Assembly: GCF_035084215.1 (NCBI RefSeq)
Contig: NW_027139666.1
Span: forward strand, 2,294,001-2,358,000
From: Heptranchias perlo
Lineage: Eukaryota
Length of the DNA stretch: 64,000 nucleotides
Reading direction: 5' to 3'
Each line of letters begins with the position of its first letter. Position 1 is the first letter of the stretch. The notes under the pieces are model-generated. The model was not told the origin of the DNA. It made no database searches and saw only the letters and a list, made by a program, of their open reading frames with translations. Shown here piece by piece: positions 43,331 through 44,779 of this stretch. Both the position numbers and the translations under genes were made by a program.

Positions 43331-43732
43331 GTTGTGGTTTTTTTTCAGTACATTGTGGAGTTTTACTTGGAGCTGGTGTACTTGGTCACCGCCTTTGTCC
43401 CTTCCGACACAGCGTGCTTGGCCAGTTCCCCGGGCAGCAGCAGGCGCACGGCGGTCTGGATCTCCCGGGAGCTGATGGTCGCCCGCTTGTTGTAATGGGC
43501 CAGGCGGGAAGCCTCACCCGCGATGCGCTCGAAAATATCGTTCACAAAGGAGTTCATGATGCCCATGGCCTTGGAGGAGATGCCGGTGTCGGGGTGAACC
43601 TGCTTCATCACTTTGTAGATGTAGATGGAGTGACTCTCCTTCCTCGACTTTCTCCGCTTCTTGCCGCCCTTGGCTGGTGCTTTACACAAGGTTTTCTTGG
43701 CGCCCTTCTTGGGAACTGCTTTCTTGTCCTCA

Positions 43733-43865
43733 TGATGTGGAGATGCCGGTGATGGACTGGGGTTGACAATTGTAAACAATTTTACAACACCAAGTTATAG
43801 TCCAGCAATTTTATTTTAAATTCACAAGCTTTCGGAGGCTACCTCCTTCCTCAGGTGAACGATGT
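43733..43865 (-). mobile_element. Penelope-like terminal-repeat-only insertion
   Basis: 43767-43865 identical to 17103-17201; flanked by 8-bp repeat tgtcctca (43725-43732, 43863-43870). Confidence 0.85.
43821..43859 (-). ncRNA. Minimal type I hammerhead ribozyme, sense to the H2B mRNA
   Basis: Same 39 nt as 17157-17195. Confidence 0.85.
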
Positions 43866-44779
43866 CCTCAGGCATTTTCAAACTCAATTTGAGACCCAGA
43901 AATGACCCAAATATGCTCCGAGCTCGGATTGAATAGGCAGCCGCACAGCCCTATGGTAATGAGGGATGGGGGAAGGCAATGATTGTGATACTGAGAGTGA
44001 TGTCACAATAATTATTCACTGTAACACTCTGATTGGATACCTGAAGAAACCAATCAGATTTAGAACCTGCCACCAATCACAAACACGCTCACACTGCACA
44101 TTGTTCGGTTTCAGCAATTTGTTCCGAACTGTTGCAGTTCTGCTTCCGGCCAGTAGATGTCCCCAAACCCCGGGTCATTGAAGTTTGCAGATGAGAGAGG
44201 GACAGAAGATAAACTCATTCTTCACAATATCTTGCACGAGTGTGATTTAGAAAAACTGGGAATGGAGACGAGATGCAAATACATTTTGTTAGACCAAACA
44301 TTGGTTTTAATGCTGTGTTAAATTCTTGTAATTGATTTTGGGATTATAGCCAATACTTCGACAAAATATACTTGCAGAACGGCCGTGTAAATGTGTATTG
44401 AATTTCAATATAGAAAGTTGTGAGCTGGTGCATTTTGTTAGGGGGAATAAGGAGGCCACATACTGCTTGGAAAATATGAGTTTAAATGGGGTAGAGGAGC
44501 AATGTAAATCGTGTCCTGAGAAATCAGAGAGAAATACTGCGCAATGTAAGTGAAAAATAACGGGGTCAATTCACAACTATCGAATGAGTGAAACAAAAAC
44601 TTTATTTTGAATCAATTGTCTTCATTTTGCAATCACAAAACGTGCAAAATTACGAGAGTAGAAGTGACAGACAGAAATTTTCCTCACATTGCACATTGTC
44701 CTGTTTCTGCAACCACGACAGATTATGTGAATTTGTTTTCCGCACTTTCACAGTTCTCGCCTACGTCCAGTAGAGGTCA

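What the first reader, a model, noticed from the sequence alone, without database searches (positions are those of the whole stretch)
43725..43875. Hammerhead ribozyme inserted in sense just after a histone H2B start codon
Seen: a 138-bp insertion with an 8-bp flanking duplication (tgtcctca) follows codon 4 of an otherwise near-intact H2B that keeps its promoter, stem-loop and HDE. On the mRNA strand it carries UUCAC-CUGAGGA-A-GGAGG-UAG-CCUCC-GAAA-GC-UU-GUGAA (43859-43821). The insert is in frame but contains a stop. Established: Penelope-like elements carry minimal type I hammerheads with a palindromic helix III that cleave as dimers. Inference: a strong S-phase promoter could drive a self-cleaving, non-polyadenylated RNA whose cleavage depends on concentration, giving an uncapped H2B-body RNA with an SLBP stem-loop.
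Basis: partly seen in the sequence, partly recalled or inferred. Interest (0 to 1): 0.8.

Follow-up and report, generated by a model that had tools for sequence, protein, structure and literature searches.

The report
Jumping-gene scrap breaks one histone copy
A short piece of a very common jumping gene, carrying its usual small hammerhead ribozyme motif, sits in one of more than 400 copies of the histone H2B gene and destroys its reading frame, which is likely an ordinary accident rather than a new way of controlling histone RNA.

Summary
The insertion and the hammerhead motif are real and lie at the stated coordinates. The insert is the hammerhead-plus-'tail' end of a Neptune-like Penelope element (3,079-bp unit, 901-aa reverse-transcriptase ORF). 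It stops at the element's own start codon. The genome holds at least 35,328 copies of this motif and 424 uninterrupted H2B starts, against 1 with this insert, so about one sense hit in an H2B is expected by chance. The host gene looks dead: three in-frame stops, three private amino-acid changes and a TATA-like variant seen in 0 of 43 intact copies. Its H2A neighbour is frameshifted, and an intact empty-site sister copy lies about 120 kb away. No contig tied RNA to this copy (inconclusive). It has no dimer partner in cis, and such ribozymes are reported as nearly inactive alone. Side results: a separate H2B–hammerhead–H2A fusion exists in 12 copies in another cluster. Family 5′ ends pile up just upstream of the hammerhead, which this scan had already noted in another genome. 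Verdict: ordinary transposon damage in a multigene family; low interest.

The parts
43953..43960 (-). Octamer-like H2B promoter element, ATTACCAT here; ATTAGCAT in the empty sister copy and 28 of 43 intact copies, ATTACCAT in 13 of 43 (so not a private lesion)
   Evidence: mammalian H2B octamer ATTTGCAT from PMC5706932 passages; the function of the shark-like motif is inferred
43929..43935 (-). TATA-like box, TATTCAA here; this variant is in 0 of 43 intact copies and the sister copy has TATTTAA
   Evidence: TATA role inferred from position and sequence
43863..43875 (-). H2B start codon, codons 1-4 and first copy of the apparent 8-bp duplication (43870-43863)
43733..43862 (-). 130-bp Penelope-like element fragment: pLTR from just upstream of the hammerhead to the element's start codon; three in-frame stops
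43821..43859 (-). Minimal type I hammerhead motif: helix I UUCAC/GUGAA, core CUGAGGA, extra A, helix II GGAGG/CCUCC, GAAA, palindrome AAGCUU; predicted cut 43826/43825
43810..43815 (-). AATAAA inside the insert (possible poly(A) signal, untested)
43733..43767 (-). About 35-nt 'tail' of the element (the longer of two 3′ end classes)
   Evidence: 16 of 30 copies long, 14 of 30 short
43731..43733 (-). The element's own ATG at the junction, out of frame with H2B (41-codon frame)
43363..43732 (-). Second copy of the duplication (43732-43725) and H2B body with private changes A8V, N/S18C, Y36H
43290..43335 (-). Histone 3′ stem-loop and downstream purine-rich element
   Evidence: (RF00032, 34.9 bits)
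42111..42529 (-). Neighbouring H2A with a 29-bp internal duplication and frameshift
17103..17615 (-). Second, longer copy of the same element in the window (end of ORF, pLTR, identical hammerhead; short 3′ end class)

Best explanation
The insert is a 130-base end fragment of a young, very abundant Penelope-like retrotransposon that sits in one of more than 400 H2B genes and has destroyed its reading frame, and the hammerhead is likely a passenger with no role for the host. Likely mechanism: the element's endonuclease nicked the H2B start; its reverse transcriptase began inside the element RNA at the start-codon 'tail' site and copied the short leader containing the uncut hammerhead, almost to the RNA's probable 5′ end; both junctions were sealed through 3-4 bases of microhomology. 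The copy has since likely been free of selection, because hundreds of intact copies supply H2B. Any transcript would be translated only to a stop at codon 18 and would need a second RNA, and perhaps the element's protein, to cleave.
For: Shown: insert matches the pLTR of tandem 3,079-bp units with a 901-aa ORF (RVT_1 E=1.4e-10) and ends at that ORF's ATG. 26,190 exact copies of a 49-mer and 35,328 of the core pattern, controls 0. 1 inserted versus 424 uninserted H2B starts. Uniform-insertion expectation: 1.7 motifs in H2B coding sequence, 0.86 in sense. Other histone genes are hit too: an H2B-H2A fusion in sense and an H3 in antisense (L095). Empty-site sister copy with intact H2B and H2A about 120 kb away (L082). 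Three private substitutions, all non-synonymous, and a private TATA-like change against 43 intact copies. Frameshifted H2A neighbour. [quoted passage not shown]
Against: The stem-loop, downstream element, CCAAT boxes and most of the promoter are intact, and the octamer-like variant also occurs in 13 of 43 intact copies, so transcription is possible. The hammerhead has every core base. Three non-synonymous to zero synonymous private changes is a small sample. Lack of RNA support is inconclusive: only contigs were available and the tables were cut. The chance estimate assumes uniform insertion and ignores removal by selection. The order of events (insertion first or decay first) is not shown.
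Confidence: 0.9

Rival explanations
1. The copy is a dead gene but is still transcribed, and part of its RNA is cut in trans by pairing with one of the many RNAs of the same element family (identical helix I arms and AAGCUU palindrome). This would give a short capped leader and an uncapped H2B body that is quickly degraded, with no selected function. It can hold together with the best explanation.
For: Promoter and 3′ signals mostly intact. Helices I and II form with probability about 0.7-1.0 in several short nascent-RNA folds with the start set 30 or 45 nt before the ATG. A swapped dimer can be drawn (-21.9 kcal/mol). The element is covered by many contigs in three RNA-labelled runs (RNA is a guess).
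Against: The drawn dimer is no more stable than two monomers (2 x -11.4). Helix I falls to about 0 in the full-length mRNA, and in all folds with the start 60 nt upstream it is at most 0.11. A monomer showed no cleavage and dimers low cleavage in PMC4209133. The Anolis motif needed its protein, and no RNA-seq ends were seen at its cut site (PMC11167929).
Confidence: 0.2
2. The insertion has been co-opted: an S-phase promoter makes a concentration-sensitive self-cleaving RNA that regulates histone output or titrates SLBP.
For: Sense orientation, complete core, intact stem-loop. A similar H2B promoter-hammerhead-stem-loop layout arose independently and stands in 12 copies on contig C49 with 0 of 39 hammerhead columns variable.
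Against: Single copy of 425; expected by chance; decay in gene, promoter and neighbour. In the 12-copy fusion the other four transcribed segments vary at 39 of 913 columns, so 1.7 variable columns are expected in 39 and zero has a probability near 0.19 (hand calculation). One of those copies has another element inserted about 200 bp upstream of its start (L104).
Confidence: 0.03
3. The insertion is an assembly error that joined a common repeat to an H2B copy.
For: No listed contig of DNA run X1 bridged either junction or showed this copy's private promoter base (tables cut, contigs drop rare variants).
Against: Both ends fall where genuine family ends fall (3′ at the tail end, 5′ in the commonest 12-nt zone), with a flanking duplication and microhomology. 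The flanks align without a break to a sister copy.
Confidence: 0.02

Closest known systems
5′-truncated copies of endonuclease-positive Penelope-like elements, Neptune type (PMC8557442; PMC4209133)
   Same: pLTR fragment with a minimal hammerhead, a tail of about 35 nt, parent in head-to-tail tandem units, frequent inverted partner copies, single ORF with RT then a CX2-5CxxC linker and a GIY-YIG-like motif.
   Different: Nothing in kind. Only the landing site (an H2B start) is particular. Clade was not tested by a tree.
Minimal (min-HHR) type I hammerheads of metazoan PLEs (PMC4209133)
   Same: All core bases, extra nucleotide between A9 and G10.1, G10.1-C11.1 pair, 5-bp helix I, palindromic 15.2/16.2 with no loop 3, mostly found as single motifs.
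   Different: Helix II is 5 bp (the S. mansoni families described have 7-8). This copy has no partner hammerhead in its transcript. Activity untested.
Poseidon element PAc of Anolis carolinensis (PMC11167929)
   Same: Two 3′ end classes a tail apart, hammerhead near the ORF start, insertions that contain the uncut hammerhead.
   Different: In PAc the ORF starts inside the hammerhead and the ends lie over 100 nt into the ORF; here the hammerhead lies about 90 nt before the ATG and the long end falls at the ATG. Poseidon lacks the CX2-5CxxC linker found here.
Non-LTR retrozymes (bioRxiv 10.64898/2026.07.22.740005)
   Same: Short, non-coding, PLE-related, type I hammerhead.
   Different: Defined there as tandem units each with a hammerhead; this is a solo fragment continuous with an autonomous PLE's pLTR.
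Histone pseudogenes in multigene clusters (birth-and-death evolution; recalled, search returned nothing)
   Same: One broken copy among hundreds, next to other broken copies.
   Different: The breaking event happens to carry a ribozyme motif.

Membership tests
Endonuclease-positive Penelope-like element (parent of the insert) | Single ORF with reverse transcriptase | tested here: met
   901-aa ORF in L074, Pfam RVT_1 E=1.4e-10, YIDD at 531
Endonuclease-positive Penelope-like element (parent of the insert) | C-terminal GIY-YIG endonuclease | tested here: inconclusive
   Motif VVY-x12-YIG at residue 789, but no Pfam GIY-YIG hit at E<=1
Endonuclease-positive Penelope-like element (parent of the insert) | Tandem units forming pseudo-LTRs that hold a hammerhead | tested here: met
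   Three whole 3,079-bp units at 99.9% identity, hammerhead before each ATG
Endonuclease-positive Penelope-like element (parent of the insert) | 30-40-bp tail at a fraction of 3′ ends; inverted 5′-truncated partners | tested here: met
   16 of 30 long and 14 of 30 short ends about 36-40 nt apart, duplicates not removed; head-to-head pairs
Neptune/Nematis clades | CX2-5CxxC linker upstream of GIY-YIG | tested here: met
   CHGNLCKTC at residue 752; feature from PMC8557442 passages
Neptune/Nematis clades | CCHH motif in the endonuclease | tested here: inconclusive
   A pattern with guessed spacing found none; no alignment to reference elements was made
Neptune clade | Placement in an RT phylogeny | not tested
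   No reference PLE proteins were fetched
Minimal type I hammerhead of PLEs | Core CUGANGA, GAAA, UH; extra base after A9; G10.1-C11.1; palindromic helix III | tested here: met
   Sequence. In 39 copies not chosen by the motif, 13 of 429 core cells differ from the majority against 34 of 156 at N7 and loop II; four helix II pairs are paired in 39 of 39 and the fifth in 36 of 39 with GC, AU and GU forms (copies are related, so not independent)
Minimal type I hammerhead of PLEs | A second hammerhead on the same RNA for the dimeric fold | tested here: not met
   The only other motif found in the window on that strand is 26.7 kb away
Minimal type I hammerhead of PLEs | Self-cleavage | not testable with these tools
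   Needs an in vitro assay or RNA end mapping; one search had contigs only
Rfam hammerhead families | Match to a curated model | tested here: not met
   No hammerhead hit at gathering threshold or E<=10
Non-LTR retrozyme | Tandem units each with a hammerhead | tested here: not met
   Solo fragment
Functional replication-dependent H2B gene | Open H2B frame from the ATG | tested here: not met
   Stops at codons 18, 20 and 27; next ATG out of frame; first in-frame Met at 43608
Functional replication-dependent H2B gene | 3′ stem-loop and downstream element | tested here: met
   RF00032 34.9 bits; one difference from the intact sister copy in the first 110 bases after the stop
Functional replication-dependent H2B gene | Active S-phase promoter | tested here: inconclusive
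   CCAAT boxes kept, TATA-like base private, octamer-like variant shared with 13 of 43; no RNA assigned to this copy

The most novel reading that the evidence does not exclude
Histone promoters fused to Penelope hammerheads (this copy, and above all the independent 12-copy H2B-hammerhead-H2A fusion on contig C49) are transcribed together in S phase, meet in the histone locus body or meet abundant element RNA, and cleave in trans: a natural, dose-sensitive dimeric ribozyme switch that makes uncapped, stem-loop-ended RNAs and feeds back on histone supply.
Probability: 0.04. Interest if true: 0.7.

Novelty: new member of a known kind. Interest (0 to 1): 0.15.

Why it matters
As it most likely stands, it matters little: it shows that a young Penelope burst reaches histone clusters and knocks out single copies. 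It has some use as a test object. Whether minimal PLE hammerheads cut in vivo is open (PMC4209133, PMC11167929), and a hammerhead with unique flanks behind a host promoter would let RNA ends be mapped without the 35,000-copy ambiguity. The 12-copy fusion on C49 is the better object for that, since it could supply its own dimer partners. If cleavage and regulation were shown, it would be a new link between transposon ribozymes and histone mRNA control.

Tried and rejected
Rfam: no hammerhead match; this says the models miss the minimal form, not that the motif is absent. DNA search of the genome with the 130-mer returned nothing because common words are skipped; pattern searches replaced it. 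Pfam did not recognise the endonuclease. Read evidence (four runs of one sample, contigs only, 'RNA' a guess, 19,413 pieces and 173 loose ends not shown): no listed contig bridged either junction; the listed RNA-labelled contigs over the 5′ UTR carry paralogue alleles and one continues as an uninserted H2B; this neither shows nor excludes transcription of this copy. I considered that the match between the H2B start (CCTGAGGA) and the hammerhead core reflects gene conversion or targeting: rejected, since CUGAGGA is the commonest family core (23 of 39 copies) and only 1 of 425 H2B starts is hit. I considered the octamer-like change a private lesion: rejected, 13 of 43 intact copies share it. Folding is sensitive to the assumed start and length and does not decide activity. 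Descriptor-picked variants were not used as covariation evidence because they were chosen for pairing; one search is the less biased count (56 anchors, 6 dropped for low ungapped identity, 50 reduced to 39 by removing duplicates). The automatic 'broken' labels over-call (H1 query without stop, end mismatches) and were not used as counts. Selection on the hammerhead in the 12-copy fusion: not significant. Lünse et al. on dimer cleavage could not be read; it is known here only through a review. Literature searches that found no report of this case: (open-access library only). No supplements were read.

Full report
Observation. On the minus strand an H2B starts at 43875. TGAGGACA stands at 43870-43863 and again at 43732-43725, with 130 other bases between; aligned to two other H2B copies in the window this is a clean 138-bp addition. 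The frame is kept but there are three stops, at codons 18, 20 and 27. A descriptor scan found it and one identical copy at about 17190, plus one loose match at 59716 that was not examined further. Rfam finds the stem-loop at 43335-43290 but no hammerhead.

What the insert is. A 49-mer of the insert has 26,190 exact matches in the 3.25-Gb genome and a 33-nt core pattern has 35,328; reversed controls give 0. Longer copies continue upstream into an ORF. A locus on contig C8 holds three whole 3,079-bp tandem units, each with a 901-aa ORF that has RVT_1 (E=1.4e-10), a CX2-5CxxC linker and a GIY-YIG-like motif (Pfam did not call the endonuclease). That linker marks Neptune and Nematis elements and is absent from Penelope/Poseidon (PMC8557442, passages); no tree was built. 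The insert matches the unit's pLTR at 97.6% over 126 bases and ends at the ORF's ATG. Of 30 sampled copies, 16 end there and 14 end about 36-40 nt earlier (duplicates included). This is the PLE tail, which in the Anolis element reflects two internal reverse-transcription starts (PMC11167929, parts 1-2 of 4 read). The element reads (G)ACA just before the insert and TGA just after it, so the 8-bp duplication overlaps microhomology at both ends and the true duplication is 1-8 bp. The host looks like a cartilaginous fish; this is a recalled resemblance, not tested.

Is the hammerhead a real motif? In 39 distinct copies from loci not chosen by the motif (56 anchors found, 6 dropped, 11 duplicates removed), 13 of 429 core cells differ from the majority against 34 of 156 at N7 and loop II. 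Four helix II pairs are paired in 39 of 39 copies and the fifth in 36 of 39 with GC, AU and GU forms; the four inner helix I pairs are paired in 36-38 of 39 and the outer one in 28. The copies are related, so this is support, not proof. The layout fits the minimal hammerheads of PLEs, including the extra base after A9 and the palindrome (PMC4209133, parts 1-2 of 4 read). The constraint belongs to the transposon family, not to this locus.

Is the landing site special? One H2B carries this junction; 424 H2B starts do not. At one motif per 92 kb, uniform insertion predicts 1.7 motifs in H2B coding sequence and 0.86 in sense; about 5 in sense over five histone types if each has 424 copies (an assumption, and selection is ignored). 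Other hits were found: a sense insertion that fuses H2B to H2A on contig C49 and an antisense one in H3. So the event needs no special cause.

Is the gene alive? Against 43 intact H2B copies held (from 30 of the 424 matches plus 40 fetched 10-kb stretches and the window), the inserted copy has three private substitutions, all non-synonymous: A8V, N/S18C and Y36H. Its TATA-like box is TATTCAA, seen in 0 of 43. Its octamer-like element differs from the commonest form but is shared by 13 of 43; the mammalian octamer drives S-phase H2B transcription (PMC5706932, passages). The H2A next to it is frameshifted. A sister copy about 120 kb away has nearly the same flanks, no insert, open H2B and H2A frames, and the common promoter forms. 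Against decay: stem-loop, downstream element and CCAAT boxes are intact. After the early stop the next ATG is the element's own, out of frame.

Would it cut? There is no second hammerhead in the transcript. A swapped dimer scores -21.9 kcal/mol against 2 x -11.4 for monomers. Helix I forms in many short nascent folds but not in the full mRNA, and the result depends on the assumed start. In print, a single minimal motif showed no cleavage and dimers low cleavage; the Anolis motif cut only with its protein, and no RNA-seq ends were seen at its site; a review states the same low rates (PMC6765202, passages). Sequencing runs gave only contigs from one sample. The element is heavily covered in three RNA-labelled runs, so trans partners may exist, but the listed contigs over the 5′ UTR belong to paralogues and none listed bridges a junction (tables cut; inconclusive).

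Mechanism. Shown: identity and ends of the insert, copy numbers, broken frame, private changes, empty sister site. From established PLE biology: endonuclease nick, internal priming at the tail site, uncut template. Inferred: copying ran almost to the RNA's 5′ end, because family 5′ ends fall steeply from 13,626 to about 4,000-5,000 within 12 nt just upstream of the hammerhead, about 30 nt after a TATAAA, and then level off. The D. virilis promoter is reported as internal and TATA-less (PMC2377424, passages), so this start site is a hypothesis. Inferred: the H2B copy now drifts.

Novelty. A new member of a known kind. Retrozyme-like PLE fragments are rare but present in exons in Xenopus (bioRxiv 10.64898/2026.07.22.740005, part 1 of 5 and passages). 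Four searches found no report of a hammerhead in a histone gene or of this family; the library is open-access only. The most interesting lead is the 12-copy fusion on C49, whose hammerhead is invariant, though not significantly so. Interest 0.15; the co-option reading has probability about 0.04 and would merit 0.7.

Noticed in passing
G000:C49:20.7-25.9 Mb (L059, L115-L126): An independent sense insertion of the same family (about 350 nt, with TATAAA, hammerhead and tail) joins H2B codons 1-56 to a broken H2A with its stem-loop. 12 copies; hammerhead invariant in all 12 but not significantly more than its flanks. A better test object for dimer cleavage than the window's copy.
   Followed up: partly
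Family-wide; window 43862-43865 and L001-L030: 5′ ends pile up just upstream of the hammerhead: 13,626 copies reach 27 nt upstream of the anchor, 6,624 reach 33 nt, 4,038 reach 39 nt, and 5,003 hold the TATAAA region at about 62 nt (patterns differ in length, so counts are only roughly comparable). The zone lies about 30 nt after a TATAAA, suggesting run-off copies of the RNA's 5′ leader. Noted earlier by this scan in another genome (e1-7858714), seen here before that note was read.
   Followed up: partly
L095:9233-10000 (G000:C49): An H3 gene interrupted by the same element family in antisense.
   Followed up: no
window 17103-17615 and about 17055-17075: Second element copy with an identical hammerhead between H1 and a broken H4; a degenerate histone stem-loop lies about 30 bp past its 3′ end.
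   Followed up: partly
window 16253-16337, 34113-34528, 42111-42529, 53140-53523: Other broken histone copies: H4 fragment, H2B with a 41-bp insertion, H2A with a 29-bp duplication, diverged H2A with gaps. 5 of the 13 histone genes in the window are broken, counting the one studied.
   Followed up: partly
L004, L056, L070: A second, unrelated minimal hammerhead family (helix II AGGUC/GACCU) with the same architecture.
   Followed up: no
L074 = G000:C8:68278200-68288199: Three full tandem units at 99.9% identity with open 901-aa ORFs; 133 scored genome matches to the ORF's C-terminal third are 98-100% identical with no stops: a very recent burst.
   Followed up: partly
window 59991-61061 and 54060-54131: A C2H2 zinc-finger-like ORF (356 aa; named from its repeats by eye) and a tRNA-like sequence (Rfam 41.5 bits).
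   Followed up: no
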